From a virus, in the IMG/VR virus record IMGVR_UViG_3300049846_002130, positions 119,529 to 183,528 of that record: a stretch of DNA of 64,000 bases. One strand, written 5' to 3'. Position 1 is the first letter of the stretch. The number at the start of each line of letters is the position of its first letter. A model generated the notes under the pieces. The model had not been told where the DNA came from and searched no databases. It worked only from the letters and a program-made list of their open reading frames with translations. Shown one piece after another: positions 3,405 through 62,905 of this stretch. A program made the position numbers and the translations under genes.

Positions 3405-3598
3405 GAATCCATCTCCTTTCTTCTAGAGTCTAGATAGCCTTGTATGCCTAACCAGAGCATAGTAATCATCATCCAGCTATTAGCATCTATATAACGAGTA
3501 AAGAGTGCAATAGTAGCAATAGTCCAAGCTATAAATTTCCTACTATTTGCCTTATTAACAAAATTTTCTATGTGTTGGCAAAGTTTATCAAGTGTCAT
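3401..3598 (-). CDS. small two-TM membrane protein (holin-like)
   Basis: SRKFI followed by two short hydrophobic helices. Confidence 0.45.
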   Translation of the reverse strand: MTLDKLCQHIENFVNKANSRKFIAWTIATIALFTRYIDANSWMMITMLWLGIQGYLDSRRKEMDS

Positions 3599-3615
3599 AA
3601 ATAATATGAGAGCGC

Positions 3616-4086
3616 CTATTCAGCGCTCTCATCCTCCCATAAAGATGGAATCTGCTGTAAAGCTAGATCCCTAATTGTACGAATATATTCCTGTATAGCA
3701 AGAATATCTTTAACCACATAAATCTTTTCTAAGAAGTCTCGTCCAGATACAGTAGGTATTTGGGAAATCCTCATTGCCTTTTTAGTAATGAAGTCATCTT
3801 CATCTAAACTCAAGAAGTAATTAAATTCGTTGAGTGTATGATGGGCTTCATATGGACTAACTTCATGTAGCTTGTTATAGAGTTTAGCTACAAGGGTTGC
3901 CATCGGTCCGCAAGGTAAAAGTTTAGTAGTAAGAGTAAAACTACCAATAGCTATTCTTCTAAACAAATCAGCATAGGGTAATAGAATTGCAAATAAAGCA
4001 TCGTCAACATTCTGACTAGTAGCATTATCTAAATCTTTGTTCTCTAGGTTTGGATTATAGGCAATAGCCTCTGGTTTCAGTTTCAT
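3616..4086 (-). CDS. hypothetical protein
   Basis: ORF track; GGAGG RBS upstream. Confidence 0.6.
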   Translation of the reverse strand: MKLKPEAIAYNPNLENKDLDNATSQNVDDALFAILLPYADLFRRIAIGSFTLTTKLLPCGPMATLVAKLYNKLHEVSPYEAHHTLNEFNYFLSLDEDDFITKKAMRISQIPTVSGRDFLEKIYVVKDILAIQEYIRTIRDLALQQIPSLWEDESAE

Positions 4087-4129
4087 TATCAGCCTCCAAT
4101 AAGAATGAGTCTAACAAATTAGGTTAGCT

Positions 4130-4238
4130 TAGAAAAGACAAACTTTATAGTGCCTGCCACAGGATACTGTCTAACCCAGTATTGATAGAGTTGAACTATC
4201 CACTTATACGTACAAGGTATTAAATGTAATCTTTTCTA
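4130..4238 (-). ncRNA. Y RNA (YrlA-like) candidate
   Basis: terminal stem TAGAAAAGA/TCTTTTCTA, inner stem TATAAGTG/CACTATA, then in order a T-arm (GATAG TTCAACT CTATC), a loop-closed acceptor-like stem and a GG-containing D-like hairpin; Ro60 gene in the window. Confidence 0.6.
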
Positions 4239-4263
4239 CATTTAAACTCAAACTTATTATAGG

Positions 4264-4337
4264 TGGGTAAGGCATCGAGTTCAACGATGCTTTCTACTAG
4301 CTACAAGCTAATCTGGATTGTCTTCTTACACATACCC
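4264..4337 (-). tRNA. atypical tRNA-like RNA (nominal anticodon TGT)
   Basis: acceptor GGGTATG/CTTACCC, anticodon arm ATTAG CTTGTAG CTAGT, T-arm GCATCG TTGAACT CGATGC, no clear D-stem. Confidence 0.5.
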
Positions 4338-4344
4338 AAGTAAT

Positions 4345-4424
4345 TGGAGAGACTAGATTTGAACTAGTGAACCTTTTGGGAACGGTTTTACAGACCGCAT
4401 GCTTTAGCCTCTTGCATACTCTCC
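4345..4424 (-). tRNA. tRNA-Tyr(GTA)
   Basis: cloverleaf; loop CTGTAAA, long variable arm, T-loop TTCAAAT. Confidence 0.85.
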
Positions 4425-4430
4425 AAAAAA

Positions 4431-4566
4431 ACTAGTGTAGATAGATGCTCGGCTCAGCGAATAAACACCTTAAGTGATCAGACAAAAAGTTAATCATTCT
4501 TTTCAGCTTTGCTACAGGATGATCTTCCCAGCTGTAATTTCTTCTACCAACAGCTTTTTACACTAG
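4431..4566. ncRNA. structured RNA candidate of unknown class
   Basis: closing stem CTAGTGTA/TACACTAG with internal hairpins, between two tRNAs. Confidence 0.4.
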
Positions 4567-4587
4567 AGCCCGGTACCAGGCTTTTAA

Positions 4588-4661
4588 TGGCCAAGGTAGG
4601 AGTCGAACCTACGACGCATAGCTCTTCGGGCTATCGCTCATACCAACTGAGCTACTCGGCC
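4588..4661 (-). tRNA. tRNA-Phe(GAA), C at position 33
   Basis: GGCCGAG/CTTGGCC acceptor; loop CCGAAGA; canonical D and T arms. Confidence 0.85.
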
Positions 4662-4758
4662 TAAGGTGTAGATAACAATTTAAACAACTTATTAGTTTAA
4701 TTCCAATTATAAATGTAAAGTTGTTAGCATTTATCTACAAGATAGATTTATCTAGAAA

Positions 4759-4941
4759 CTAAAAGACTTTTTTGGCTTTAGTATAAGCAAAACCCTTTTT
4801 GCCTATACGAGTAGTAACTTGGCCTTTAGAGTTTAGACCTACTCTCGCACCAGGGATACCAATACTAGTGGATATACCTGTTTTACTAATTGTAATGTTT
4901 ATTGGACCTACTTTGAAGGTCTTAGATGCAGAGAGTTTCAT
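4759..4941 (-). CDS. DUF4236-like small basic protein
   Basis: KTFKVGPINITISKTGISTSIGIPGARV pattern. Confidence 0.65.
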   Translation of the reverse strand: MKLSASKTFKVGPINITISKTGISTSIGIPGARVGLNSKGQVTTRIGKKGFAYTKAKKVF

Positions 4942-4957
4942 TACTCCTCCAATAGTA

Positions 4958-5581
4958 CTAGATTAATCTAGAGCCTACCTTATTTTCAACTGCAGCAGAA
5001 CGATCAGCATCTGTAAAGAAGTTGTCGCCACTAACCTTATCTTCAGCCCAGCCATCGATAATATTTAGCAGCGAATTCAATGCTGCTTCAAAGTTATGAG
5101 CTGTGTTGCTCATCTGCAATGTTTTGCCTGGTTTGATACCTAGCTTAGTAGAATATTCGATAGCTTTCTTATCTGTACCCATAAAAAGCCAATCCCACCG
5201 CAGCGCAGTTTCCATTGTTCGAATACGCTCGCAAATGTTTTTGGCTGTACCAGAATCATAGTGACCATCTTGTCCATCAGTGAATACGATGGAAAGTACT
5301 TTATCTGTAGGCTGAAATCCTGTTGAAGTATTTAAACTATCTAAAAATTTAGATAGTGATCCACAAATATCAGTATCACTACCGTTTGCTGAATAGCTTC
5401 TACGAAGGTCAGCAACAGAAACATATTCGTTTCCAATATAGCCGGAGAAAGTTCTGGCATATAACTGGACATCCTTCTTATCTAGTAAAAGCTGTAGCCT
5501 ATCTAGAAAAGAGCGTAGTGTATGTTTATGGCTTGCCATCGAGCCTGAATCATCTAATAATAATGCTAATTTCTTTTGCAT
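4958..5581 (-). CDS. von Willebrand factor A domain protein
   Basis: MIDAS LLDDSGSM; FTDG; FMG. Confidence 0.85.
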   Translation of the reverse strand: MQKKLALLLDDSGSMASHKHTLRSFLDRLQLLLDKKDVQLYARTFSGYIGNEYVSVADLRRSYSANGSDTDICGSLSKFLDSLNTSTGFQPTDKVLSIVFTDGQDGHYDSGTAKNICERIRTMETALRWDWLFMGTDKKAIEYSTKLGIKPGKTLQMSNTAHNFEAALNSLLNIIDGWAEDKVSGDNFFTDADRSAAVENKVGSRLI

Positions 5582-5740
5582 GTAAGTCTCCTATGCAATG
5601 CCTTCGTTAGAAGGCTTATATTTTAGTACAAAGCCTAGCCAAGGCGACCATTAGGTCGCCTCCCAGCCCCAGGGTTAGGGACTATATAAACTTATTCATA
5701 ATTTATCAGGCTGACTATTTTTTTAATATAATTTTTAAAA

Positions 5741-6736
5741 TTACCAGCCCCAATCGCCCATTAAATTACCAACACTGTAATCGCTCACCCTCCCCTCAAA
5801 GAAATTTTTCAAACTATCTCCACTCATAATCCAGTCTAACCAGGGTAGTGGATTTGTTTCTATTTCATAGTTTGCTTTAAGGCCAAGCATTTGAAGCCTA
5901 CGATCAGCAATATATCTTATATATACTTTCATTTCTTCTGGTGTTAGGCCTTCAATTGGTCCCATAGCAAAAGCTTTATCTATAATAATATCTTCAACTT
6001 CTACAGCTTGACGGTACATACTGTAGATATATTTTTTAAATTCATTACTAATAATTTGGGGGTGCTCTTCGCAGAACTTTTTAAATAGCCAGCTCATGCC
6101 TTGTAGATGTAGTGTTTCGTCCCTAATAGACCATTCAACTACAGTGCACATGCCCTTCATCTTACCAAAGCGTTGGTAGTTCATTAACATGGCAAAGGCA
6201 CTAAAGAGGCTCATGCCTTCATTGCATACTGTATGAGCTAGCTGATAAGCCATAGTCTTTATTTCTGCTTCTCTTATAGACGCTTCATTAGGAAAGGCTC
6301 CTACAGAATGATAATCAGACATAAGATCTACTTTGTGTTTCATATCTTTATCAGATAAAAAAGCACCGTACTCAGATTCATCCATACCTAATGTATCGTT
6401 TAACAACGCATATGCTCGCTGATGAATTGCTTCGCGAGAAGCGAAGCTCATGAGCATTTGTCGTATCTCATGACTTCTAAAGAACGGAATGAATCTGTCA
6501 CAGTAGTTAGAGGCGACCTGCACATCAGTCTGAGTAAACAGCCGCAGAATTTCCGTTATATGGTTCTTCTCTGCAGGGGTTAGGATTCCAGTTTTCCATT
6601 GTTTAATATCTTCTTGAAGTTCTGCTTCCCATTCACCCCACGCAGCGCGATCTGACTGAATGGCAAAGTCAATTGCTTCTGGATATTTAAATGGCTTATA
6701 TGTTTGGCTATAATGTTCTAAGCTCATAGTTAACAC
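5741..6736 (-). CDS. nrdB: ribonucleotide reductase class Ia beta subunit
   Basis: EAIHQRAY, EGMSLFSAF, WSIRDETLH di-iron ligands; NFFE tail. Confidence 0.95.
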   Translation of the reverse strand: MLTMSLEHYSQTYKPFKYPEAIDFAIQSDRAAWGEWEAELQEDIKQWKTGILTPAEKNHITEILRLFTQTDVQVASNYCDRFIPFFRSHEIRQMLMSFASREAIHQRAYALLNDTLGMDESEYGAFLSDKDMKHKVDLMSDYHSVGAFPNEASIREAEIKTMAYQLAHTVCNEGMSLFSAFAMLMNYQRFGKMKGMCTVVEWSIRDETLHLQGMSWLFKKFCEEHPQIISNEFKKYIYSMYRQAVEVEDIIIDKAFAMGPIEGLTPEEMKVYIRYIADRRLQMLGLKANYEIETNPLPWLDWIMSGDSLKNFFEGRVSDYSVGNLMGDWGW

Positions 6737-9859: not shown

Positions 9860-11257
9860 CTAGCGTATCTTTATGTTTTTAATTGTATCTACTAGAGATG
9901 TGCTATCAGAGGCAAATCTAATAACAGCATTAATTAGCTGTGTATTAAGTCCCGACATGTTTAAGGTATTGTCATCTGAGACGGGGACACAAGGTTTAAA
10001 TTCTAGATCCCAGAATACAACTTTACCTTTAATTTTACCTTGCTCTCTTAAGTCAGCATATACTTCTTTAACAGAGGTACTAGTTTGATTTTCTACCCAG
10101 GTTTCATTGTCAGATAAAATAATTGTTAAATCTGTTTCTGGTTGAATAGCTTCCAAAGCAGCAGTTACTCGAGTGCTACCACCAACAGAGAATAAGGTTC
10201 TAATTGAAGTTGAGAATAGTTGCTCTTTAGTTATTGTCTCTTCAATCTCAGTATTAAAGGTAGTTATAGTTGTTTTATCTGTAGCCATATATCTAGCCAA
10301 CCACAAAGCTTTGTCAATGTATTGATGCCTATACATACTTGTAGAAACATCAATAAAGATTTGTATATTTAAATCTGATGATAAAGCAGGAGTGTACTTT
10401 ATTGACTCATTAAGAGCTTGCTCAAATACTGGGCTATAATTAATATTGCGCCAAGTAATTACTAAAGATTCAAGATCTTTACGAAGTGTAGTTGCATCGA
10501 CATCTAGTAATTTACTATCTGTTAGCTCTTTATTATGACTACTAAACTGATTATAGAATTTTCTAATTTGTGTCCAAGTGCTTCGTGTAATTAGATCATC
10601 CTTTTGCTTATCACTCATTTTGTTCCAATGATTGAGAAGCAAAATGCCCGGAGCATATCTTGGTAGTCTATCTGTTAACTCACCAGATAAGAACATTTTA
10701 TATTCATTTAGAAACAATGGATATTCTTTTGTTCTTTTAAATAACCATGAAAAATAATCAACGTGTGTCGAAGGCGGATTGGGATGTGTAAGAGAAATTA
10801 AGTCTTTTAATGTTGGAGTTCCATAATCTTGCGCAAATAAAACTTCTGGTTCTGTCTGTACTAAAAATTCTTTAATATAGTTTTTAGCTGCAGATCCAAG
10901 AGATCTAATACCAATTTCTCCACCTCTAACTAGTTGAACAAACTTTTTAATCATTCCAAGATTGTCTAGTATATATGGGACTGTTTCATTGAATAGCTCT
11001 GGCTCTTTTCTTACTAATAGTAAGATAAGAAGAACAATTGGTGTATCCTTCATCCCAGCTTGAGTTCTTGCATAGATAGCTGTCTGTGCAATATATTCTG
11101 AATCGCATCTATTTGCTGTATCTAATAGCTGCTGTAAATTAGCAGTAGAACGAGTCTTGGAAGTTAAAATAGCTGTTGTTGCAATTTTTGCTAATAATTC
11201 TTCTGGAGTCATTATATCCATAATTCCACCAGCAGAATTTCTTATATGTCCGTCCAT
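9860..11257 (-). CDS. Ro60/TROVE-domain RNA-binding protein with C-terminal vWA domain
   Basis: N-terminal NSAGG..TPEELLAKIATT, AIYAR..GMKDTP, LISLTHP; vWA DVSTSM...GGST...SDNETW. Confidence 0.85.
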   Translation of the reverse strand: MDGHIRNSAGGIMDIMTPEELLAKIATTAILTSKTRSTANLQQLLDTANRCDSEYIAQTAIYARTQAGMKDTPIVLLILLLVRKEPELFNETVPYILDNLGMIKKFVQLVRGGEIGIRSLGSAAKNYIKEFLVQTEPEVLFAQDYGTPTLKDLISLTHPNPPSTHVDYFSWLFKRTKEYPLFLNEYKMFLSGELTDRLPRYAPGILLLNHWNKMSDKQKDDLITRSTWTQIRKFYNQFSSHNKELTDSKLLDVDATTLRKDLESLVITWRNINYSPVFEQALNESIKYTPALSSDLNIQIFIDVSTSMYRHQYIDKALWLARYMATDKTTITTFNTEIEETITKEQLFSTSIRTLFSVGGSTRVTAALEAIQPETDLTIILSDNETWVENQTSTSVKEVYADLREQGKIKGKVVFWDLEFKPCVPVSDDNTLNMSGLNTQLINAVIRFASDSTSLVDTIKNIKIR

Positions 11258-11406: not shown

Positions 11407-12813
11407 ATGACTGGATGGATAAAAAGAGAGTTCGCTGCCGATGATTTTGGTCCCGGTATAAGAACTAAAGTTACCGCAAGTGCTCAAGTAGAGCCTAATC
11501 GGGTTGTATTGGTATCTTCTACTAATACTGCAGCCCATGCCTCTGTTTACGCACATGAATTTGGTGAGTGTACTGGCGTTTGTGTAGCTAAAAGTACAGT
11601 TAATCCTTCTGAGGCTTTCTATGTAGCTACATCTGGCGATGTAGATATAGATGCTATTGATGAGATATCTGCTGGCTCTCCTGTAAAAGTTTACAGTGCT
11701 GGTAAGGTCGGGCCCGCTCTTAGAAAGAGTGATGTTCTGGCTACAAGAGGTTCCTCTTTTGGAGCCGGGTTTACAAATCAGCCAGCTAACGATGGTATTG
11801 AAGTAGTTAGCTCTAGTGCTCTTGATGTTCAATATCTAGATCTTTATGGAACTACTCATGGCACTACTACTCTAGTACGCGAGAGAATACATCTTACTGG
11901 TACTTCTGTTGTAAGCACAGTTAAAACTAACTGGGGCAGACTACTTGGTGCTTTAATACCTCGTGGGCTAGGAAGAAATGCTGTGGGCACTATTACTATT
12001 CGAGAAGCATCTGGTAATGCCACTATTACTACAATTGTCCCAACTGCTCGTAGCAGTGGCATAGTCTTAGTTAGCTCTGCTAACAGACCAATGTTTGGTT
12101 TGCCAGGTGTCGTTGTGGGTTCAGAACCCAGCACAAGAATAGTTGGTCTTATTGGTACAGCTCTTGATAACTCTACTGCTGTTCTAGAAGCAGTAGCTTT
12201 AGCTGGAACAGATCTTGTTTCTTTAACGGAGTCACTGGCTAGTATCACAGCTTTATTAATTGGTGATATTGATGATACTACTGTTGTAGATATCAAGCTT
12301 CATCCACATTATGATATCTCTACTATAGTAGGAGTAGCTTTAGCTGATGCTGAACCAGCAACTAAAGTTCCTGTTAATTTAATCCATAGAGAGCGTAATC
12401 GTGAACTTGAAGGTGCTGAAGCAGCACGGACTTACTCTGTAACTGTTACTGGTGGAGTTATAGCTGACAGCTATACAACTCCAGTATCAATACTACCACC
12501 ACCTCCTAGTGGTAAGTCTTACCTTGTTGAAAGAGTAAAGGCTTCTTGGGAATATGGTTCAGCTCCTATGGTTTCTGGTAGCTTTACAGATATTGGGTTT
12601 GCTTTTACTAGCTCTGGAACACTAGTAAGTTCTTTAGTTCCATTAGCAGTACTTGAGGGTACAAGTGATTACACTAAAGTACATACTCTCGGTACTAGTG
12701 TTTTAGTGAACGAAGGTCTAGAGCTTGTTGCTGCTGGTGATGATGCTACCGATGGTGGAACAGATAATAGTTTAACACTTACAATTGTCTATAGAATTGT
12801 TTCTATAATGTAA
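11407..12813 (+). CDS. probable virion protein with N-terminal DUF2190-like (capsid decoration) region
   Basis: GV.VA...V.TSG.V......ISAGSPV pattern; beta-rich G/S/T/V composition. Confidence 0.55.
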   Translation: MTGWIKREFAADDFGPGIRTKVTASAQVEPNRVVLVSSTNTAAHASVYAHEFGECTGVCVAKSTVNPSEAFYVATSGDVDIDAIDEISAGSPVKVYSAGKVGPALRKSDVLATRGSSFGAGFTNQPANDGIEVVSSSALDVQYLDLYGTTHGTTTLVRERIHLTGTSVVSTVKTNWGRLLGALIPRGLGRNAVGTITIREASGNATITTIVPTARSSGIVLVSSANRPMFGLPGVVVGSEPSTRIVGLIGTALDNSTAVLEAVALAGTDLVSLTESLASITALLIGDIDDTTVVDIKLHPHYDISTIVGVALADAEPATKVPVNLIHRERNRELEGAEAARTYSVTVTGGVIADSYTTPVSILPPPPSGKSYLVERVKASWEYGSAPMVSGSFTDIGFAFTSSGTLVSSLVPLAVLEGTSDYTKVHTLGTSVLVNEGLELVAAGDDATDGGTDNSLTLTIVYRIVSIM

Positions 12814-12835
12814 GACTAAACTTAGTAATAGATAT

Positions 12836-12863
12836 AAAAAGAGGGCCTTATGGCCCTCTTTTT
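12836..12863. terminator. bidirectional intrinsic terminator
   Basis: AAAAAGAGGGCC-TTAT-GGCCCTCTTTTT between convergent genes. Confidence 0.8.
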
Positions 12864-13918
12864 ATATACTTAAATTGAGCTGTTCCAGTAGTTTGATAAC
12901 TTAAAAATTCAGAATAGATACTATTAGTCACAACATCATAAATCCAATCGTTAACTATTATCGTCACATTATCTATTAGATAGTAAACCTCAATAGTATC
13001 TGCTACTGGGAAATAAGATAAGTAATAATTATCGTCTTCCAGATAGGTAAAGTTCTCAGCAATATCATCTAAGGTTGGGGTCCAGTCTGGAGAGTTGATA
13101 TCTATTATTTTACTACTTTGTCCATAGGCTTCAGATAGCTCAATATAGGCTTCTCCTATAAGATTCTCTGGATCTCCATATGGTGCACTAGTTGTAACAA
13201 TAGAATGAATATCTAAGCTCATTCTGGAGTCTCGCTCGTCGTCCATTAGGTTTCTAACAATGTTAGGTGGAACAGATGTATGATCATCTTCATCTGAAAT
13301 TATGATTAATTCTAATGGAACTAGTGGTCTATAATATTGTTGTGTGGCTGACAGTTCCATAGTTAAGGCAATACCCTGTTCGTTTCCTGAGCCTGTAGTC
13401 CCTACTAATAGTAGGTCCCTTAGTAGGATATCTGCTTCTTCAACCAGTGGTGTTAATATTGTATAACCCTGACTCATTTCTAGTTGATATTTAGGAGTAA
13501 AACTAAACACACCAACTCTAAAATCTATATCACTTCCTATTAAGGGATCTATTATAGACACACTATTAACAGAAATTAATTTTTGATTATCATTCATAGA
13601 ACAAGAGTCGTCTACTAAAAAGAATAAATCCATTTTTTTAGTTTTATTGACGACTATGTTCTCGACTATATATTCTGTAAAGTCTATCGTCTGAACACTA
13701 GTTGGCAGTACAGGCTCTGATACTCTAGAAATATTATTTTCAATACAGCCTACAGGCGAACTAGTTACTAAAAGAAACAGTAAGAATATTATGAAGTTCT
13801 TCTTCAGTAAACTCTGAAGGAGATAATTCGTTAATGTCTTCGACTCTGAAAGCTGCTGCATTTTTATGGCCTCCACCACCATATAGTTTAGCAAGTTCAG
13901 ATACGTCGAGGCCACCAT
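12848..13918 (-). CDS. vWA-domain exported/lipoprotein
   Basis: hydrophobic segment then Cys; LVDDSCSM MIDAS; ISDEDD; true start probably internal. Confidence 0.7.
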   Translation of the reverse strand: MVASTYLNLLNYMVVEAIKMQQLSESKTLTNYLLQSLLKKNFIIFLLFLLVTSSPVGCIENNISRVSEPVLPTSVQTIDFTEYIVENIVVNKTKKMDLFFLVDDSCSMNDNQKLISVNSVSIIDPLIGSDIDFRVGVFSFTPKYQLEMSQGYTILTPLVEEADILLRDLLLVGTTGSGNEQGIALTMELSATQQYYRPLVPLELIIISDEDDHTSVPPNIVRNLMDDERDSRMSLDIHSIVTTSAPYGDPENLIGEAYIELSEAYGQSSKIIDINSPDWTPTLDDIAENFTYLEDDNYYLSYFPVADTIEVYYLIDNVTIIVNDWIYDVVTNSIYSEFLSYQTTGTAQFKYIKRGP

Positions 13919-14840
13919 CTTTTGATGAACGTAAAGATATATTCCACCCTTTCCCAGTACAGTAATAAATAGCAGCTGTCTTAAGCTTATTAGCTTCTGC
14001 TAAATTACTACCTAATTCCGACTGATAAAAATTACAGTTAATAGCAGGTATAACATAGTTGCTTATTAATAGTTTATGTACCTTGTTAGGAGATCCAAGT
14101 ATACCTATTACTTTGTTGTGGTAGCGAAGATAAGATTTACCTTCAGCTACACATTCATCATAATGATCAGTAAGCCTTGCTGATATTTTATCCCACTCAG
14201 GAAAGGTACGCCTATACATCTCTATAACTAATAAGAGTTCTTTTGCATTTGGAACTTTCCATTTCCAAATATCTCGATCTTCAATAAGATCAATAAGTAA
14301 CGGGCGACCTACACCAAGCTCATCTTTACAAAACCAGTCCCAAACAATACCTGCTCCGGATCTGTTCATATCAAAATATGTATATGGCAGATCTCCACAT
14401 TCCTTTTGTGCAGAGATATGATGATCGAGTACAAGTACTTCATCAAAATGATCGGCACATGTAATCAACATATCTCTGTGTGGACAAATATCTGCAAAGA
14501 GAATCTTTTGAGCACCAGATTCTTTTAGAAGTTTTTTGGTTGCTTCAAATTTGTGATCTTCTCTGATAAAACGAATTTTAGTATCTAGTAAACTACATTC
14601 TAAATATTCTAAATCACCATCTGCATCTAACATGCTAGCTATATTTTTAGCACCAAGCTTCTTTATATAGTGATAGTAACCCCATGCTGCTCCAAATCCA
14701 TCAGGACACGGGGCGTGGAATACAATAACGTCATAAAAAAGTAAATCAAGCTTTGCAATAGCTATAGCTAATTTTTGAGCTTTAGGTAATAAATTACTAG
14801 GTATAAAATTTTTACTTTCTATCATGTGGATCAATTCCAA
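13761..14840 (-). CDS. DHH/DHHA1 phosphoesterase
   Basis: H.PC.DG, FADI, LDHH, SLRS, GGGGH..AAAF. Confidence 0.9.
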   Translation of the reverse strand: MELIHMIESKNFIPSNLLPKAQKLAIAIAKLDLLFYDVIVFHAPCPDGFGAAWGYYHYIKKLGAKNIASMLDADGDLEYLECSLLDTKIRFIREDHKFEATKKLLKESGAQKILFADICPHRDMLITCADHFDEVLVLDHHISAQKECGDLPYTYFDMNRSGAGIVWDWFCKDELGVGRPLLIDLIEDRDIWKWKVPNAKELLLVIEMYRRTFPEWDKISARLTDHYDECVAEGKSYLRYHNKVIGILGSPNKVHKLLISNYVIPAINCNFYQSELGSNLAEANKLKTAAIYYCTGKGWNISLRSSKDGGLDVSELAKLYGGGGHKNAAAFRVEDINELSPSEFTEEELHNILTVSFSN

Positions 14841-23961: not shown

Positions 23962-24182
23962 AATAAGAAATTATCTAACTTATTTGCAGATAAAGTCTTA
24001 ATTTGATTCAAGATCTTATCTAGTTCTTCAATAGATTGAAATGATTTGGACCCTAAATAGGCTCTATGTCTTGCCCAAGATGGAAATCCCCATACATATA
24101 TTCTATTAGATTCTATCCGTATTGCTAGATTTTTAGCTTCAATTATAGAGTATAAATCAGCTAAACCAATCATCTGATCCAA
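23958..24182 (-). CDS. hypothetical protein
   Basis: coupled to the mnmA stop. Confidence 0.5.
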   Translation of the reverse strand: MDQMIGLADLYSIIEAKNLAIRIESNRIYVWGFPSWARHRAYLGSKSFQSIEELDKILNQIKTLSANKLDNFLF

Positions 24183-25225
24183 CCTCCGCCAATTACTTGG
24201 CCTTGTCTATAAACAACTGCTGCCTGTCCAGGTGTAACTACTGTTGGCGTTTCTATATGTATTGTTTTAGAACCATATACATCGTCTAAAGATATGGTTT
24301 TAACTGGAATACTATTCTTCCTATAGCGAATAACAACTTCAATATCGTTGGTTGGAGTGGGCTCTTCCCAACTAATCCAACCATCTACTCTAAAGCTAGT
24401 AACAGCATTAGCATCTCTAATGTCAGATACATATACTGTACTTGTATCCTTATCTATACGAGTAACAAACAACGGATTATTGCTTTGTGTAATATTTAAT
24501 CCACGACGTTGGCCAATAGTAAAGTTATGAAGACCATTATGCTTTCCTAAAGTGTTTCCATTCTCATGCTTAATTAAACCACTAGTACCAGAAAGATAAG
24601 TTACTATCTGCTTTTCTAAAAATTCTTTATGGGTACCATTAGGAGCAAAGCATAAATTTTGACTTTCTTGCTTATCTGCAATTGGTAAATCAAGCTCCTT
24701 AGCTAAAGCTCTTACATTTTCCTTAGTTAAAGTAGCTAGTGGAAAAAGAATTTTAGATCTAAACAATGGATCTATTGGGAATAGAAAATAAGATTGATCC
24801 TTATTACTATCAAAAGCTTTATAAAGCTTATTGTCAATTAGCTGAGCATAGTGTCCAGTCGCGACATAATCATATCCAAGCGTCTGTGCCAACTCAATAA
24901 GCAAATTGAACTTAAGAATGCCATTGCAATGAGTACACGGAATAGGAGTGCGGCCATTAAAGTATTCCTCCACAAAATTCTGAAGTACAAACTTCTTAAA
25001 GTGTGCTCGGTAATCTGTTACGAAGTATGGTATGTTAAGCTCACTACAAACTATATTGGCATCAATAGCATCTTGTTGTCCACAACAAGACTTTGATATA
25101 ACTTCTTTAACTTCGTCATGGAGCTTCATATGAACTCCAAGTACATCATGGCCATCTCTCTTGAGTAAAGCAGCAGCAACACTGCTGTCAACACCGCCTG
25201 ACATTGCTACTAAAACTTTAGACAT
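24170..25225 (-). CDS. mnmA: tRNA-specific 2-thiouridylase
   Basis: AMSGGVDSSV, CC, TPIPCTHCN, ATGHYA, KDQSYFL, ESQNLCF, TIGQRRG, TPGQAAV. Confidence 0.95.
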   Translation of the reverse strand: MSKVLVAMSGGVDSSVAAALLKRDGHDVLGVHMKLHDEVKEVISKSCCGQQDAIDANIVCSELNIPYFVTDYRAHFKKFVLQNFVEEYFNGRTPIPCTHCNGILKFNLLIELAQTLGYDYVATGHYAQLIDNKLYKAFDSNKDQSYFLFPIDPLFRSKILFPLATLTKENVRALAKELDLPIADKQESQNLCFAPNGTHKEFLEKQIVTYLSGTSGLIKHENGNTLGKHNGLHNFTIGQRRGLNITQSNNPLFVTRIDKDTSTVYVSDIRDANAVTSFRVDGWISWEEPTPTNDIEVVIRYRKNSIPVKTISLDDVYGSKTIHIETPTVVTPGQAAVVYRQGQVIGGGWIR

Positions 25226-35278: not shown

Positions 35279-35352
35279 TGAGAGAGCAGGGATTTGAACC
35301 TTGGACCACTTGCTTAACAGGCACAATGCTCTACCACCTGAGCTATAGGTCT
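35279..35352 (-). tRNA. chimeric/pseudo tRNA-Asn(GTT)-like gene with a foreign 3' end
   Basis: D-arm and loop CTGTTAA present; acceptor AGACCTA vs CTCTCTC does not pair. Confidence 0.65.
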
Positions 35353-35429: not shown

Positions 35430-37549
35430 TCTAGTTTAGTACTAAACTTTAATTTTTCTTGATCTCTAGTTACATAGATTATGTCATTGGCTACATATAT
35501 ACCACCTATGACTTCATTAGATAGTGGATCAAGTAAGTAGTTATTAATTGCTCGCTTTAGTGGACGTCCACCAAAAGCAGGGTCATAACCTTTATCAACA
35601 AGTAGTTCCTTAGCTTCAGGAGTTATTATTAGCTTAAGTTCTTTATCTGCTAATTGTTTTTGTACTTTATGTAAGTGAATATCTAGTATCTTACTTATAT
35701 CGGATTTAGTAAGTGGATCAAATATTACTTTACTATCGATTCTATTTAGAATCTCAGGCTTAATAGCTTTAAGTAATTCAGCTTCAACAGCAGCTGTAGC
35801 TTTTTCTCTGTTACCTGCAGCTTCAAATATTTTTACAGAGCCAATATTTGAAGTCATGATGATAACAGTATTCTTAAAGTCTACGCTCCGGCCACGACTA
35901 TCAGTTAGCCTGCCTTCATCTAATAGTTGTAAGAAAACATTAAAGACATCTGGGTGCGCCTTCTCTATTTCATCAAATAGAACCACAGAGTATGGTCTAC
36001 GCAATACTGCCTCAGTTAGCTGGCCACCTTCATCATGACCAGCATAACCTGGAGGTGAACCTAGTAATCTACTAACAGTATGCTTTTCCATATACTCTGA
36101 CATATCGATACGAACAATGGCGTTCTCATCATCAAATAAGAACTCAGCCAAAGCCTTTGCTAGCTCAGTCTTGCCAACACCAGTCGGTCCTAAAAACAAG
36201 AAACTACCTGTCGGCCGGTTAGCATCTTGAAGGCCAGCACGGGCTCGTCGGACAGCCTTAGATAAGGCCACAATGGCTTCGTGTTGCCCAATAACTCGTT
36301 TATGGAGATTATCTTCCATATGCAAAAGCTTCTGAGATTCGCTTTGCTTTAGTTTGTTAACCTTGATGCCTGTCCACTGACCAATAACCTTTGCTATGTC
36401 GTCATAGGAAAGAGCATCCGAAAGAAGTGGTTTCTCACCTTGAACATTAGCTAGATTATTGTTTAGATTCAATAATGTTTGTTCAGCTTCAATCAGAGTA
36501 CTATATCTAATCTTGCTGGCTTGTTCATAATCACCATTAGTTTCAGACTCTTCGGCAATAAGAAAAAGTTCTTCTATGAGTTCTTTTTGAGAAGCAATCT
36601 CATCCAAGATAGTTCTCTCTTGAGACCACTGAAGCTTTAGGTTTGCAAGATCATCTTCTTTTGTTCTAAGCAAGGCTTTAAGCTTATTGTAAGCAGTTAC
36701 ATTACGATCACTTCTTATAGCTACTTCATTAACCCTAAGAGATATAACTTCTCTTTCTAGTAAATCAATCTCATGAGGCTTACTTTCAGATGTAGTCTTT
36801 AATAAGCTACAAGCTTCATCAAGTAAGTCAATAGCTTTATCTGGAAGATTTCGTTCAGTTAAGTACCTGTTGCTTAAAGTAGCTGCAGCTATTAAAGCAG
36901 AATCATTAATCTGAATACCATGATAGGTTTCGAACTTCTCTTTTAGGCCTCGTAGGATTTGCAGGGTTACATCAACACTTGGAGCATTAATAAATACTGC
37001 CTGGAATCTACGATCTAATGTTTTATTCTTTTCGAAGGTCTTCTTATATTCATCAATACTAGTTGTACCAATCACCCTAAGGTTGCTTCTAGATAGACTA
37101 TCCTCAAGCATACTGCTTGCATCAACTCCACCCTCAGACTTACCAGCACCAACAATATTATGAATATTATCTAGAAAAAGAATTAAGTCATCGCTCCTAG
37201 ATTCTAATTCTCTAAGAAGTTTAAGTAGTCGTTCTTCGAATTCACCTCTATAACTAGCCCCAGCTAGAAGACTAGCTATATCTAGGGATAGAATTTTTTT
37301 ATTCTTTAGATATTCTGGGACATCCTCAACTACAATTCTTTGAGCAAGGCCATAAACTATAGTGGTCTTACCTACACCAGAAGCTCCTATTAAAATAGGA
37401 TTATTCTTAGATCTACGAGTAAGAATCTGAATAACTCTTCGAATCTCTTCATCTCTACCAATTGTGGGATCAAGTAAATCTTCTTCAGCTAAAGCTGTAA
37501 TATTCTTACAGTAGCGAGCAACAATATCTTCCTTAGCTGACTTGGTCAT
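35408..37549 (-). CDS. clpB: ClpB-like AAA+ disaggregase lacking the N-terminal domain
   Basis: LDP.IGRDEEIRR, two NBDs, coiled-coil middle domain, GPTGVGKTE, DEIEKAH; start reset to MTKSAK because the longer ORF overlaps tRNA-Ser. Confidence 0.9.
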   Translation of the reverse strand: MTKSAKEDIVARYCKNITALAEEDLLDPTIGRDEEIRRVIQILTRRSKNNPILIGASGVGKTTIVYGLAQRIVVEDVPEYLKNKKILSLDIASLLAGASYRGEFEERLLKLLRELESRSDDLILFLDNIHNIVGAGKSEGGVDASSMLEDSLSRSNLRVIGTTSIDEYKKTFEKNKTLDRRFQAVFINAPSVDVTLQILRGLKEKFETYHGIQINDSALIAAATLSNRYLTERNLPDKAIDLLDEACSLLKTTSESKPHEIDLLEREVISLRVNEVAIRSDRNVTAYNKLKALLRTKEDDLANLKLQWSQERTILDEIASQKELIEELFLIAEESETNGDYEQASKIRYSTLIEAEQTLLNLNNNLANVQGEKPLLSDALSYDDIAKVIGQWTGIKVNKLKQSESQKLLHMEDNLHKRVIGQHEAIVALSKAVRRARAGLQDANRPTGSFLFLGPTGVGKTELAKALAEFLFDDENAIVRIDMSEYMEKHTVSRLLGSPPGYAGHDEGGQLTEAVLRRPYSVVLFDEIEKAHPDVFNVFLQLLDEGRLTDSRGRSVDFKNTVIIMTSNIGSVKIFEAAGNREKATAAVEAELLKAIKPEILNRIDSKVIFDPLTKSDISKILDIHLHKVQKQLADKELKLIITPEAKELLVDKGYDPAFGGRPLKRAINNYLLDPLSNEVIGGIYVANDIIYVTRDQEKLKFSTKLEGPSPSR

Positions 37550-37581
37550 ATGCACTCCAATCAATATAAGCTTATTATAAA

Positions 37582-37665
37582 CGGAGCCGGCAGGATTCGA
37601 ACCTACGATAGTGTTACTATGGTTGTTTAGCAAACAACTGGTTTAAGCCACTCACCCACAGCTCC
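37582..37665 (-). tRNA. tRNA-Ser(GCT)
   Basis: cloverleaf with loop TTGCTAA and long variable arm, G73. Confidence 0.9.
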
Positions 37666-38122: not shown

Positions 38123-38490
38123 TTATCACCATTAATCCATTTGTTTAGATACTCTTCTGGAAAAACAGAATTATCAGAATTTAGCTCTACAAATGGGTCT
38201 GCTTTAGAACTTTGAGTTAATAGCTTATATTTACTTCCTGATGCAGTTGTTACGATACCGTCTTCATATGAAACAATGGGGCCTGTAACTGTCCATCTTG
38301 CAGGAGGCCGACTTCCATCAGCTTCCTCCTCAACCCATCCAGTAAGACACCAGATCTTAAGATTTGGATCAGTATAGGCTTTCTTAGGAAGCAAAGACCA
38401 CTGACTAAGTGTTCTTCTTCTAGGAGAGTCTTTCGTATCAAAATGTAAGGTTACATTTTGAGTAACTAGTGCAATTAAGTTAGGATCCAT
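38107..38490 (-). CDS. hypothetical phage protein
   Basis: TGPIV...IVTTASGSKYKL pattern. Confidence 0.6.
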   Translation of the reverse strand: MDPNLIALVTQNVTLHFDTKDSPRRRTLSQWSLLPKKAYTDPNLKIWCLTGWVEEEADGSRPPARWTVTGPIVSYEDGIVTTASGSKYKLLTQSSKADPFVELNSDNSVFPEEYLNKWINGDNWVTI

Positions 38491-39788
38491 TAGCTAATCT
38501 CCTCTATATCTATTACATCCTGTTCTTTAGCAATACCTTCAAGGTGTTTAAAGACAAAGCCTTTGTGTTTAAATATTGTACCGAACATATTTGGATGTTC
38601 GACTCTAATACAAACACCTTCAATAGGATGTCTATTATCAATAGGATCTGGTCCATCTGATAGCTGGTGACTAAGTTCCAATAAAGCTTCTTTAGTATCT
38701 AGCTTAAATCTTGTTAGCTCGGGGACATGTTTAAGTCCTAGTTCTTTACACCTAGCTTTAATCTGATCCCAAGATAGTTCTGTTATAGCTCCGTCAGTAT
38801 CACAACTAGTAATTCTATAAACATAAAGTTCATATTGGCCTTCAGAAAGACCATATGAATAAGTAATTGTAGGTGGATAAATCCGGGCTAAAGCTTTTCT
38901 TATATCATCTTTATCTCTTATTAAAGAATGCTGAGCCATGATTGGTTTATTATGCATCCAACCAACTAATTCGTAATATAGAACTTCACCTTTATGAAGA
39001 CTGAGTTTACTGCCTATTGCTTGTCGCCAAGCTCTGTCTCCAAAGTCGGTCTCAATAAGTTTTTCTCTTGGATCAAAAGTAACATTACGACTACCAGTAA
39101 CATGCTTCCAATCACTTTTGGTTTTAAGTACAAATGGAATCTTAAAGAAAGCTAATAACCAATTAATAGCAAGCTTCCAGAACCAAGGTTTTCTTTCAAC
39201 CAAAACATGACCGGTTCTACCACTAGTTCCGTGTAGTTTTTGAGTAATAATTATATCTGCTTGATCTGGAATAGTACTTAAATAATAGCTAAGTTGTTTA
39301 GTGTCATAATGCTTAGGAAGCATTATGATTTCTTTAAGCTTCGTTTTTACTTTGTTTGGCTTCTTTATCAAAGAGGTTGTAGCTTTAGAGAAATATTTAT
39401 TACAAACAAGTTGATTGTTAATTATAGTAAAGGTTTGACCTTCTTTTAGTTCAGCTAAATTAGTACCCGTCCAGCTAAGTTTATCTAGCTCAAGCCAAAT
39501 ACCTTCTGATCTAACTCCTCGAATAGTAATACATTTTATTCTTCGATTAGCTTCGAAGTAACCGTTGGCTTCAGGGTCTTTGTTTTCACCTTTACCACGT
39601 CGGTAAAGATTATTGTGATAACACATCTCATGGCTAAGCTCCCCATCGGAGGGGAAATAAATACCAAGCTGACCATCTTTAACTACATTAGAAACCACAA
39701 CTTCATTACCTAAGCAAGAACCTATTAAAAGTCTACTTGCATTAGGATGTGGTTTTGTTTTTATTCTGGTAATAATTGCTTCATACAT
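38490..39788 (-). CDS. ATP-dependent RNA ligase, DRB0094/Rnl5-like
   Basis: N-terminal OB-like HPNASRL...GIYFP.D; motif I QKLHGTS; YELVG; EGVCIR; FKHK. Confidence 0.8.
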   Translation of the reverse strand: MYEAIITRIKTKPHPNASRLLIGSCLGNEVVVSNVVKDGQLGIYFPSDGELSHEMCYHNNLYRRGKGENKDPEANGYFEANRRIKCITIRGVRSEGIWLELDKLSWTGTNLAELKEGQTFTIINNQLVCNKYFSKATTSLIKKPNKVKTKLKEIIMLPKHYDTKQLSYYLSTIPDQADIIITQKLHGTSGRTGHVLVERKPWFWKLAINWLLAFFKIPFVLKTKSDWKHVTGSRNVTFDPREKLIETDFGDRAWRQAIGSKLSLHKGEVLYYELVGWMHNKPIMAQHSLIRDKDDIRKALARIYPPTITYSYGLSEGQYELYVYRITSCDTDGAITELSWDQIKARCKELGLKHVPELTRFKLDTKEALLELSHQLSDGPDPIDNRHPIEGVCIRVEHPNMFGTIFKHKGFVFKHLEGIAKEQDVIDIEEIS

Positions 39789-62308: not shown

Positions 62309-62557
62309 ATGATCCTGGCGGGCCAAGTACTAGCACTATTCATTACTGGAGCAGTCGAGTATGCCTTGGCTGCCGCATGGACGGAGTCTGTGAGTCGTAA
62401 ACATGCTACTGCATGTGCAGGAATTAGCTTTGTAAACGTTATGATTTGGGGAACTGTTGTTACCTACGTATCTACAGGTGGTTGGCCAGCACTTGTAGCA
62501 CATGCATTAGGTTGTGCAGCTGGTGCTTGGCTTACTGTTAAATATAACAGTAAATAA
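62309..62557 (+). CDS. small three-TM membrane protein
   Basis: hydrophobic helices; GGAG RBS. Confidence 0.6.
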   Translation: MILAGQVLALFITGAVEYALAAAWTESVSRKHATACAGISFVNVMIWGTVVTYVSTGGWPALVAHALGCAAGAWLTVKYNSK

Positions 62558-62558
62558 A

Positions 62559-62881
62559 TGGGCCGTATAGGATTCGAACCTATGACCTCGGGCTTAACGT
62601 CACTGCACTTAGTTTCCTAAGCTACCTTAAAGGCTTGCAGTGCTGGACTATATCATCACCTTCACCTTAAGTGGTCAGGTGCTGTACGTGTAGTCTCTGA
62701 GGACTCTCTGCTAATGCAGGTTGCCTGCTGATTGTCCAATCCATTAAATTTTTACGTTTAGGCACGTATTAATGGCTCTAAGGAGTTTCCAGCATATAGT
62801 ACAGTTCATTTACTATATTTCTATAGTAACGCTCTTATTACACGTTTAAGGCCCTCGCTCTACCAACTGAGCTAACAGCCC
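62559..62881 (-). tRNA. tRNA-Lys(TTT) interrupted by a group I intron
   Basis: exon 1 62881-62848 and exon 2 62597-62559 join into a cloverleaf with loop CTT|TTAA. Confidence 0.85.
62598..62847 (-). mobile_element. group I self-splicing intron (250 nt, no ORF)
   Basis: P TGCTGGAAACTCC, Q AATCAGCAG, R TCAGAGACTAC, S GATATAGTCC, terminal G. Confidence 0.9.
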
Positions 62882-62905
62882 CTAACTACCCTCTCACCGG
62901 TCCCG

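What the first reader, a model, noticed from the sequence alone, without database searches (positions are those of the whole stretch)
4130..4238. YrlA-like Y RNA candidate hidden downstream of the tRNA cluster
Seen on the minus strand: a 9-bp terminal stem (TAGAAAAGA/TCTTTTCTA), an internal loop, a second stem (TATAAGTG/CACTATA), then three hairpins. These run T-arm with TTCAACT loop, acceptor-like 6-7 bp stem closed by a loop, and a short hairpin with a GUGGC loop. Established: bacterial YrlA Y RNAs have this permuted tRNA-like module on a long stem and partner Ro60. A Ro60 gene lies about 5.6 kb away. Inference: this is a phage Y RNA that tRNA scanners would likely miss. A competing local hairpin (TAAATGTA/TACATTTA) overlaps its 5' strand.
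Basis: partly seen in the sequence, partly recalled or inferred. Interest (0 to 1): 0.85.

Follow-up and report, generated by a model that had tools for sequence, protein, structure and literature searches.

The report
Divergent phage Y RNA beside tRNAs
The stretch is very probably a gene for a small "Y RNA" with a built-in, partly reduced tRNA look-alike, the RNA partner of the Ro60 ring protein that this uncultured freshwater phage also encodes; the kind is already known from bacteria and a few phages, so this is a new and unusually divergent example, not a new kind.

Summary
Rfam's YrlA model does not see the candidate at all. A 465-aa gene at 9860-11257, on the same strand, is a real but very divergent Ro60. 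I collected 80 other phage contigs that encode Ro60. These carry over 100 Y-RNA-like genes, all on the Ro60 strand, with one shared "handle": outer stem, AUGC loop, inner stem, UACAU. Rfam YrlA hits their long forms at 40-64 bits, below its cut-off of 69. A covariance model of 38 of these long forms, none from this phage, hits the candidate full length (25.9 bits, E about 0.001). A handle-only descriptor that ignores the T arm finds two sites in the window, against 0.012 expected. One is the candidate, which really spans 4250-4106. The other is an unnoticed short Y RNA at 4739-4667, 5 nt before tRNA-Phe. The candidate deviates in three ways: AUGU for AUGC, a 16-nt 3' loop and a reduced D arm. 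No orthologues or RNA data were found, so expression and Ro60 binding remain inferred. This scan has reported similar phage Ro60/Y RNA sets on other DNA. It is a new member of a known kind.

The parts
4106..4250 (-). Proposed whole long (YrlA-type) Y RNA, about 145 nt
   Evidence: R3 full-length match 4119-4250 at 25.9 bits, E 0.0012. The handle descriptor gives 4106-4250. Sequence.
4242..4250 (-). Outer stem, 5' strand UGAGUUUAA; pairs with 4114-4106
   Evidence: 9 contiguous pairs, one of them G-U. Pair probability is 0.98 for the outermost pairs.
4238..4241 (-). 5' internal-loop motif AUGU. The family has AUGC: invariant in 28 short forms, variable in a few long forms, e.g. AUGU in L100:6496.
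4229..4237 (-). Inner stem, 5' strand AGAAAAGAU; pairs with 4139-4131.
   Evidence: The equivalent helix covaries strongly in the family (helix 2).
4224..4228 (-). UACAU motif, invariant in the family. Together with U4229 it gives UUAC, which fits Chen et al.'s YUAY at the start of the V region.
   Evidence: PMC4201824
4201..4208 (-). Closing stem of the tRNA-like module, 5' strand UAUAAGUG; pairs with CACUAUA 4152-4146 (4+3 bp, bulged A)
4184..4200 (-). T arm GAUAG-UUCAACU-CUAUC
   Evidence: Identical to T arms of real phage tRNAs. Aligned to the family's T arm by R1 and R3. Pair probability 0.85.
4164..4182 (-). Acceptor-like stem closed by a loop (AS): AUACUG-GGUUAGA-CAGUAU
4153..4163 (-). 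Reduced D-like hairpin CCU-GUGGC-AGG; the GG is retained
   Evidence: Similar reduced forms occur in L105:4849-5011 (GGU-UGGC-ACC) and L048:13113-13256.
4146..4152 (-). Closing stem, 3' strand CACUAUA
4131..4139 (-). Inner stem, 3' strand GUCUUUUCU
4115..4130 (-). 3' internal loop, 16 nt, ending UUUG. The family's loop is 7-10 nt and ends YYG.
4106..4114 (-). Outer stem, 3' strand UUAGACUCA; ends 19 nt before the ATG of ORF 3616-4086
4667..4739 (-). Second, short Y RNA: outer stem UGUAGAUAA/UUAUCUACA, AUGC, inner stem AACAACUU/AAGUUGUU, UACAU. It ends 5 nt before tRNA-Phe.
   Evidence: R2 28.3 bits, E 1e-4. R3 25.3 bits, E 0.0016. Descriptor hit. Sequence.
9860..11257 (-). Divergent Ro60 (TROVE HEAT ring + vWA with DxSxS), 465 aa
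   Evidence: No direct Pfam hit. The profile finds 827 homologues, and most of the top ones scanned carry Pfam vWA_Ro60, half also TROVE. PDB profile matches to Ro60 proteins, E 1e-30 to 1e-40. AF2 pLDDT 86; Foldseek Ro60 TM 0.70, E 5e-14.
4256..4284 (-). Sigma-70-like promoter match TTGAAC-17-TATAAT; would start transcription at about 4250
   Evidence: 10 of 12, the joint best of three such matches in 3500-5800. This is a consensus match only.
4262..4337 (-). Low-scoring tRNA-Thr(UGU)-like gene between tRNA-Tyr and the Y RNA
   Evidence: Called by ARAGORN only at a relaxed threshold; not called at default or by Rfam.
4343..4426 (-). tRNA-Tyr
4588..4661 (-). tRNA-Phe

Best explanation
Window 4250-4106 (minus strand) encodes a roughly 145-nt YrlA-type Y RNA of this 183-kb freshwater phage.

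Anatomy. Its 5' and 3' ends pair into a two-part handle: a 9-bp outer stem, an asymmetric internal loop with AUGU on the 5' side, and a 9-bp inner stem followed by UACAU. By homology with bacterial and phage Y RNAs, this handle is the docking site for the phage's own Ro60 ring protein (9860-11257, same strand). The apical part is a circularly permuted tRNA-like module. It has a closing stem, a canonical T arm, a loop-closed acceptor stem and a reduced D hairpin that keeps the GG.

Context. A second, short Y RNA with the same handle lies at 4739-4667. Both sit in a small tRNA cluster and are probably cut out of a longer transcript by tRNA-processing enzymes.

Function, inferred from D. radiodurans, S. 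Typhimurium and Thermus phage phiLo. The RNA gates or tethers Ro60 to a host exoribonuclease such as PNPase for handling structured or damaged RNA during infection. The tRNA-like module serves as the effector or recognition end.

Shown here: the structure elements, family membership by covariance model and descriptor, and the Ro60 gene. Inferred: transcription, the RNA's ends, Ro60 binding and function.
For: 1. All helices are present.
2. The gene at 9860-11257 is a Ro60. Most of the ten best distant homologues scanned carry Pfam vWA_Ro60, half also TROVE. The PDB profile search gives E 1e-30 to 1e-40 to Ro60 proteins. The AF2 model (pLDDT 86) matches Ro60 structures at TM 0.70.
3. 56 of 80 other phage Ro60 loci gave 129 hits to my model R1, all on the Ro60 strand. 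In the family, 96.5% of cells are paired and 22 of 24 pairs show double-sided changes; slid controls give 40-46%.
4. Rfam YrlA hits their long forms full length at 40-64 bits, E 1e-5 to 2e-12. The family is therefore YrlA kin.
5. Model R3, built from 38 long forms and none from this phage, gives the candidate 25.9 bits, E 0.0012, full length with filters off. In 100 kb of the remaining 119.5 kb of the genome the best score is 17.7 bits.
6. The handle-only descriptor gives 2 sites in the window (the candidate and its neighbour), 0.012 per shuffle, 0 in the rest of the genome, and 133 versus 0 by strand in the Ro60 loci.
7. The neighbour at 4667-4739 scores E 1e-4 with the short-form model R2.
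8. Reduced D arms occur in other members: no canonical D stem could be aligned in 6 of the 41 long forms, and examples are.
9. In other phages, Y RNAs also lie 4-7 kb downstream of Ro60 inside tRNA clusters.
10. A promoter-like site places +1 at the first base of the outer stem.
Against: - Rfam YrlA gives no hit at the site even at E<=10.
- The short-form model R2 gives only 15.9 bits, E 0.13, with the 3' half misaligned.
- R3's margin over the best tRNA-driven full-length hit (20.7 bits) is only about 5 bits, and its E-values are rough.
- The candidate has AUGU where 28 of 28 short forms have AUGC. Its 3' loop is twice the usual length. The D arm is much reduced. Chen's GNCGAA(N)G motif is absent in strict form.
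- The unconstrained MFE fold (-33.7 kcal/mol) prefers the competing hairpin (probability about 0.8) over the inner stem. The family fold is -32.9 kcal/mol.
- No orthologue was found, so there is no covariation for this sequence itself.
- No RNA data exist, and no terminator precedes the next ORF.
- Ro60 is 5.6 kb away, beyond Chen's 4 kb.
Confidence: 0.75

Rival explanations
1. It is a decaying, no longer functional paralogue of a Y RNA (a Y RNA pseudogene), left beside the working short Y RNA.
For: It deviates from the family at several conserved features. It has AUGU instead of AUGC, a 16-nt 3' loop and a reduced D arm. An alternative hairpin is slightly more stable than the family fold. It scores low with R1 and R2.
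Against: Five helices (9, 9, 4+3, 5 and 6 bp) are all intact in a 33% GC sequence. Each single deviation is seen in high-scoring members elsewhere. The site is identical in contigs from two separate studies, which is uninformative either way.
Confidence: 0.12
2. It is a cis-acting leader of the downstream ORF 3616-4086, or a processing signal of the tRNA transcript. It would be derived from a Y RNA or tRNA but would not act as a free Ro60-bound RNA.
For: The 3' strand of the outer stem ends 19 nt before the ATG and 8 nt before the GGAGG. No intrinsic terminator lies between. Two nearly isoenergetic folds exist.
Against: The handle matches more than 100 free-standing elements in other phages that have varied downstream contexts. 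The downstream ORF has no recognisable family or relatives.
Confidence: 0.08
3. It is a chance set of AT-rich hairpins around the T arm of a broken tRNA.
For: The MFE z-score is only -1.66. The T arm is generic. A low-scoring tRNA-Thr-like gene lies next to it. tRNA pairs cross-hit the models.
Against: The T-arm-independent handle descriptor expects 0.012 hits per window and gave none on the wrong strand of 1.1 Mb. R3 aligns the candidate full length at E about 1e-3.
Confidence: 0.04

Closest known systems
YrlA (Rfam RF02553; S. Typhimurium, M. smegmatis, mycobacteriophages; Chen et al. 2014, PMC4201824; structure in Wang et al. 2018, 10.1101/312249)
   Same: A stem formed by the 5' and 3' ends, then YUAY, then a permuted tRNA-like module in the order (V)-T-AS-D. 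It is encoded on the Ro60 strand. The T loop fits the tRNA consensus.
   Different: It gets no score from the Rfam model. It has UAAAUGU where YrlA has GNCGAA(N)G. The D arm is reduced to an 11-nt hairpin. It lies 5.6 kb from Ro60 rather than within 4 kb, inside a tRNA cluster.
Yrl1/Yrl2 of Thermus phage phiLo with phiRo60 (PMC12135203; PDB 9KOP, 9L5Y)
   Same: Phage-encoded Ro60 with two phage-encoded Y-RNA-like genes and a stem-bulge-stem handle. phiRo60 is among the best sequence and fold matches of the window's Ro60.
   Different: The phiLo RNAs lie directly upstream of Ro60 and were picked by a CGAA motif. Binding to Ro60 and to host PNPase was shown by EMSA and cryo-EM there; nothing has been tested here.
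YrlB (S. Typhimurium) and other short bacterial Y RNAs
   Same: The short element at 4739-4667 has the handle plus a plain apical loop and no tRNA-like module. It pairs with a long form in one locus.
   Different: The equivalence rests on architecture only.
Yrn1 of Deinococcus radiodurans (Rsr-Y RNA-PNPase 'RYPER')
   Same: It provides the likely working model: the Y RNA tethers Ro60 to an exoribonuclease. Yrn1 also has a T-like stem-loop and only partial D-loop features (PMC4201824).
   Different: A different sequence family. No PNPase gene was seen in the parts of the window that I annotated.

Membership tests
YrlA (Rfam RF02553) | Match to the Rfam covariance model (gathering score 69 bits) | tested here: not met
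   No match at the site at gathering, at E<=10 on 1.1 kb, or in the whole genome. The same model scores clear relatives in other phages only 40-64 bits.
YrlA (Chen et al. 2014) | Encoded on the same strand as a Ro60 orthologue | tested here: met
   Ro60 at 9860-11257 (-); the RNA at 4250-4106 (-)..
YrlA (Chen et al. 2014) | Within about 4 kb of Ro60 | tested here: not met
   The distance is 5.6 kb. In other phage loci, family members lie up to about 7 kb away inside tRNA clusters.
YrlA (Chen et al. 2014) | GNCGAA(N0-1)G motif near the 5' end | tested here: not met
   The sequence is GUUUAAAUGU. The AAAUG variant with a compensating 3' change occurs in several members (L084, L057, L053, L074), but the following C is U here.
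YrlA (Chen et al. 2014) | 5' and 3' ends pair into a long, interrupted stem | tested here: met
   Outer stem 9 bp plus inner stem 9 bp.
YrlA (Chen et al. 2014) | YUAY at the start of the V region | tested here: met
   UUAC at 4229-4226, within the invariant UACAU.
YrlA (Chen et al. 2014) | Conserved T stem-loop resembling the tRNA T arm | tested here: met
   GAUAG-UUCAACU-CUAUC, with G53-C61 kept. It is identical to real phage tRNA T arms.
YrlA (Chen et al. 2014) | Loop-closed acceptor-like stem between T and D | tested here: met
   6 bp plus a 7-nt loop at 4182-4164.
YrlA (Chen et al. 2014) | Nearly invariant D stem-loop (4-bp stem, 7-9-nt loop with GG) | tested here: not met
   Only CCU-GUGGC-AGG, or alternatively CCUG-UGG-CAGG. 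The GG is kept. Comparable reductions occur in a minority of members.
YrlA (Chen et al. 2014) | tRNA-type tertiary pairs, Psi55/D modification, RNase P and CCA-adding substrates, Ro60 binding | not testable with these tools
   These need biochemistry.
Phage Ro60-linked Y RNA 'handle' family (models R1-R3 built here) | Full-length match to a covariance model built without this phage | tested here: met
   R3: 25.9 bits, E 0.0012. R1: 14 bits, E 0.31. E-values are rough.
Phage Ro60-linked Y RNA 'handle' family (models R1-R3 built here) | Match to the short-form (handle-only) model | tested here: inconclusive
   R2: 15.9 bits, E 0.13, with the 3' half placed wrongly because of the 84-nt apical insert. 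The neighbour at 4667-4739 scores 28.3 bits, E 1e-4.
Phage Ro60-linked Y RNA 'handle' family (models R1-R3 built here) | Handle layout: outer stem / AUGY / inner stem / UACAU / 3' loop ending G / outer stem | tested here: met
   Descriptor hit at 4106-4250. It expects 0.012 per shuffled window and gave 0 on the wrong strand of 1.1 Mb. The limits (Y, loop up to 16) were set after seeing the candidate.
tRNA | Cloverleaf in normal order, recognised by ARAGORN or Rfam RF00005 | tested here: not met
   Not called at default settings. Only spurious calls appear at relaxed settings.
Ro60 / TROVE (for the partner gene 9860-11257) | TROVE HEAT-repeat ring plus vWA domain with a MIDAS DxSxS | tested here: met
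   No direct Pfam hit. The family profile matches Ro60 structures end to end. Fold TM is 0.70 to 1yvp, 9nep and 2i91. D303, S305 and S307 are invariant.

The most novel reading that the evidence does not exclude
The phage's Ro60, its two Y RNAs, its tRNA set, an MnmA-like tRNA thiolase and an RNA ligase might form one tRNA surveillance and repair module that keeps translation going when the host attacks tRNAs. In that case the reduced tRNA-like end of the long Y RNA would act as a decoy or sensor for tRNA-directed enzymes. The near-isoenergetic alternative hairpin would switch the handle between a Ro60-competent and an incompetent state, possibly coupled to the ORF that follows without a terminator.
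Probability: 0.1. Interest if true: 0.7.

Novelty: new member of a known kind. Interest (0 to 1): 0.4.

Why it matters
For this phage, the result adds two unannotated RNA genes and identifies a Ro60 gene that Pfam misses.

More generally, the curated YrlA model misses phage Y RNAs. None reached its cut-off in 9 Ro60-bearing loci, while a model built here finds over 100 candidates in 56 of 80 loci. These often form arrays of long (tRNA-like) and short forms interleaved with tRNA genes.

That gives a large, covarying data set for asking what phage Ro60 particles do. It also shows how far the tRNA-like module can be reduced while the handle stays intact.

It does not change the known picture of Ro60 and Y RNA biology.

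Tried and rejected
- Rfam gave nothing at the site, either at gathering or at E<=10. YrlA sub-threshold hits elsewhere in the genome were tRNA cross-hits.
The contigs of the only two close Ro60 homologues, P0002 and P0003, could therefore not be fetched. This was the main obstacle to testing covariation on the candidate itself.
- No close relatives turned up in IMG/VR or the JGI metagenomes. I tried the Ro60 protein, the flanking ORFs, the Lon-like ATPase (one distant contig, L128, without Y RNAs or tRNAs) and DNA patterns. One search found only tRNA T arms. One search found mostly a coding region plus three GC-rich family members.
- blastn against GenBank phages matched only the two tRNAs.
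- Sequencing runs: three DNA holders with identical sequence, possibly the source samples, and no variants. No RNA holder was listed.
- A third weak hit in the genome (G000 78175-78255) lies antisense inside a 688-aa ORF and was dismissed. L121:2138-2213 lacks UACAU.
- The R3 hit at 62496-62624 is the 3' exon of an intron-bearing tRNA, not a Y RNA.
I used a trimmed MAFFT alignment instead.
- The genome search with R2 missed the 28-bit short element. Its pre-filter is lossy for these AT-rich RNAs.

Full report
**Observation.**
- 9-bp stem: UAGAAAAGA 4238-4230 with UCUUUUCUA 4138-4130.
- Second stem: UAUAAGUG 4208-4201 with CACUAUA 4152-4146, which is 4+3 bp with one bulged A.
- T-like hairpin: GAUAG-UUCAACU-CUAUC, 4200-4184.
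- Loop-closed 6-bp stem: AUACUG-GGUUAGA-CAGUAU, 4182-4164.
- Short hairpin: CCU-GUGGC-AGG, 4163-4153.

Folded alone, the 109 nt adopt this layout, but the energy is unremarkable: z = -1.66, and 7 of 200 shuffles fold as well. ARAGORN and the Rfam tRNA model call tRNA-Tyr (4343-4426) and tRNA-Phe (4588-4661) upstream, but not this stretch. The 17-nt T hairpin is identical to the T arms of many genuine phage tRNAs in IMG/VR.

**The partner gene.** The window is the last 64 kb of a 183.5-kb IMG/VR virus record with terminal repeats. Identical copies occur in freshwater metagenomes.

The ORF at 9860-11257 (minus strand, 465 aa) has no Pfam hit and only a C-terminal match to PHROG 850, 'RNA-binding protein'. 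It has just two close homologues among 5.8 billion proteins. Several lines show it is nonetheless a Ro60:
- A profile of the three sequences finds 827 relatives of about 500 aa. Of the ten best I scanned, nine carry Pfam vWA_Ro60 and five also TROVE.
- A 35-sequence profile matches X. laevis Ro60, human RO60, D. radiodurans Rsr and Thermus phage phiLo Ro60 end to end, with E 1e-30 to 1e-40.
- The AlphaFold model (pLDDT 86, pTM 0.84) superposes on Ro60 structures with TM 0.70 and E 5e-14.
- The MIDAS DxSxS (D303, S305, S307) is invariant.

Rfam YrlA (RF02553, gathering score 69 bits) gives nothing at the site. This holds at gathering, at E<=10 on a 1.1-kb slice and in the whole genome, where its weak hits are tRNA cross-hits. 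I therefore asked what Y RNAs look like next to Ro60 in other phages.

A scan of IMG/VR with the Ro60 profile returned 80 loci with distant Ro60 genes, 22-34% identical. In nine of them Rfam reported only tRNAs at gathering. A simple T/AS/D descriptor hit only the candidate in my window. In those loci it found clear permuted tRNA-like modules, all on the Ro60 strand and not called as tRNAs.

A covariance model of nine of these (R1) then gave 129 hits at E<=0.01 in 56 of the 80 loci, every one on the Ro60 strand, with up to nine per locus. On 41 of them, 96.5% of cells are paired and 22 of 24 pairs change on both sides. Slid controls give 40-46%.

Rfam YrlA does recognise the long forms full length, but at 40-64 bits, with E 1e-5 to 2e-12. 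These are YrlA relatives that the curated cut-off excludes.

**Anatomy of the family.** There are long forms of about 130-185 nt with a T/AS/D module, and short forms with a 60-75-nt core. Both share one handle, in this order:
- an outer stem ending in GA;
- AUGC, invariant in 28 short forms;
- an inner stem of 7-9 bp;
- YUACAU, with UACAU invariant and the Y paired;
- the apical part;
- the inner 3' strand;
- a 7-10-nt loop ending YYG;
- the outer 3' strand beginning U.

The CGAAUG of this handle is Chen et al.'s GNCGAA(N)G, and its YUAC is their YUAY (PMC4201824).

**The candidate carries this handle.** It is preceded by AUGU (4241-4238) and followed by UACAU (4228-4224). An outer 9-bp stem, UGAGUUUAA 4250-4242 with UUAGACUCA 4114-4106, encloses it. 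The 3' loop (4130-4115) ends UUUG-U as in the family. The element is therefore about 145 nt, 4250-4106.

The 'competing hairpin' is made of the conserved AAUG...UACAUU segments. Here the C-to-U change makes it a perfect hairpin.

**Statistics with models that exclude this phage.**
- R1: the candidate is the only true full-length hit in the window, at 14 bits, E 0.31.
- R2 (28 short forms), filters off: the best hit is a new site at 4667-4739 (-), 28.3 bits, E 1e-4. The candidate is second at 15.9 bits, E 0.13, with its 3' half misplaced because of the 84-nt insert.
- R3 (38 long forms), filters off: candidate 25.9 bits, E 0.0012, full length. The short site scores 25.3 bits, E 0.0016. The best tRNA-driven full-length alignment scores 20.7 bits.
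- In 100 kb of the remaining 119.5 kb of the genome nothing exceeds 17.7 bits with R3 or 16.2 bits with R2. The best of those hits lie in coding sequence or lack the motifs.

Because R3 rewards any T arm, I also wrote a descriptor of the handle alone. It finds exactly the two sites in the window, against 0.012 loci per dinucleotide shuffle (6 of 500 shuffles). It finds none in the rest of the genome. In the 80 Ro60 loci it finds 133 sites on the Ro60 strand and none on the other. Two of its limits (AUGY, loop up to 16 nt) were chosen knowing the candidate, so the figure is indicative only.

**How the candidate deviates.**
- AUGU instead of AUGC. This is seen once among the long forms, in L100:6496.
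- A 16-nt 3' loop instead of 7-10 nt.
- A D arm reduced to an 11-nt hairpin that keeps GG. No canonical D stem could be aligned in six of the 41 long forms. L105:4849-5011 has a very similar GGU-UGGC-ACC, and L048:13113 and L072:13512 are reduced further.
- A T stem with A-U at the 52-62 position, which is rare in the family.

With outer and inner stems enforced, the best fold is -32.9 kcal/mol against an MFE of -33.7 for the alternative. In the free ensemble the alternative hairpin has probability about 0.8 and the inner stem about 0.09. Protein binding or tertiary contacts would have to tip the balance.

**Context.** The order on the minus strand is:
- Ro60, a 145-aa ORF, dUTPase, RNR large subunit, a 79-aa ORF, RNR small subunit, a 207-aa ORF and a 60-aa ORF;
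- the short Y RNA (4739-4667), then tRNA-Phe starting 5 nt later, then tRNA-Tyr;
- a low-scoring tRNA-Thr(UGU)-like gene (4337-4262, called by ARAGORN only at a relaxed threshold);
- the long Y RNA, then ORF 3616-4086.

Elsewhere, Y RNAs likewise sit in tRNA clusters 4-7 kb downstream of Ro60, in L053, L048, L072, L043 and L057. A sigma-70-like match (TTGAAC-17-TATAAT, 4284-4256) would place +1 at about 4250, the first base of the outer stem. This is only a consensus match, and earlier notes of this scan say the phage has its own RNA polymerases. No terminator separates the RNA from the next ORF. The window also encodes an MnmA-like tRNA thiolase and an RNA ligase.

**Mechanism.** By homology, the handle docks on Ro60 and the apical module is the effector end. 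In D. radiodurans and S. Typhimurium, Y RNA tethers Ro60 to PNPase. In phage phiLo, Ro60, its Yrl RNAs and host PNPase form a ternary complex (PMC12135203). YrlA's module is a substrate of TruB, DusA and RNase P (PMC4201824). I infer the same for this phage, with release from the tRNA transcript by tRNA-processing enzymes. None of this is shown here.

**What is missing.** No orthologue of the candidate itself could be found. Covariation therefore supports the family, not this copy. No RNA run holds the sequence.

**Verdict.** This is a divergent, D-arm-reduced YrlA-type Y RNA, one of two Y RNAs of a phage Ro60 system. It is a new member of a known kind. Phage Y RNAs were reported by Chen et al. 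2014 and for phiLo in 2025. This scan has described similar phage sets on other DNA.

Noticed in passing
window 4667-4739 (-): An unannotated short Y RNA with the canonical handle: UGUAGAUAA / AUGC / AACAACUU / UACAU ... AAGUUGUU / UAAAUUG / UUAUCUACA. It ends 5 nt before tRNA-Phe. R2 gives 28.3 bits, E 1e-4.
   Followed up: yes
window 4262-4337 (-): A tRNA-Thr(UGU)-like gene with a 7-bp acceptor stem (one U-U), anticodon loop CUUGUAG, T loop UUGAACU (G at position 56) and no proper D arm. ARAGORN calls it only at a relaxed threshold. Its T loop and 3' end coincide with the -35 and -10 of the promoter-like site upstream of the long Y RNA.
   Followed up: partly
window about 62555-62885 (-): A tRNA gene interrupted by a group I intron (Rfam Intron_gpI 62624-62851, 67.9 bits). 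The 5' exon is GGGCUGU-UA-GCUCAGUUGGUAGAGC...CUU. The 3' exon has T arm AUAGG-UUCGAAU-CCUAU and ACGGCCC. The anticodon region reads CUUAA (UAA). ARAGORN does not call it.
   Followed up: partly
window 35287-35345 (-): A truncated or low-scoring tRNA directly after tRNA-Asn (Rfam 29.2 bits, model positions 8-63). Together with tRNA-Asn it cross-hits the YrlA, R1 and R3 models because it presents a T arm followed by a D arm.
   Followed up: no
window 24170-25225 (-), 38490-39788 (-), 35430-37633 (-), 13761-14840 (-): An MnmA-like tRNA 2-thiouridylase, an RNA ligase, a ClpB-like double AAA+ protein and a DHH/DHHA1 phosphoesterase. With 10 or more tRNAs and Ro60, these show a marked investment in tRNA and RNA upkeep.
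   Followed up: no
window 4169-4175 and 4109-4115 (-): The heptamer GUUAGAC occurs twice, once in the AS loop and once in the outer 3' strand. The outer 5' strand could therefore pair with either copy, and R2 aligned it to the inner copy. The significance is unknown.
   Followed up: no
L108, L087, L107, L116 and other IMG/VR Ro60 loci: Arrays of 4-9 model hits per locus on the Ro60 strand. They mix long and short Y-RNA-like forms, some hits may be tRNA cross-hits, and they are interleaved with tRNAs. L093 also has a tmRNA (10624-10998) just downstream. Rfam YrlA scores the long forms 40-64 bits, under its 69-bit cut-off.
   Followed up: partly
window 11407-12813 (+): A 468-aa ORF rich in V/T/S/G on the opposite strand, facing the Ro60 gene, with no Pfam or PHROG hit. 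A bidirectional terminator-like hairpin lies at about 12830-12870.
   Followed up: no
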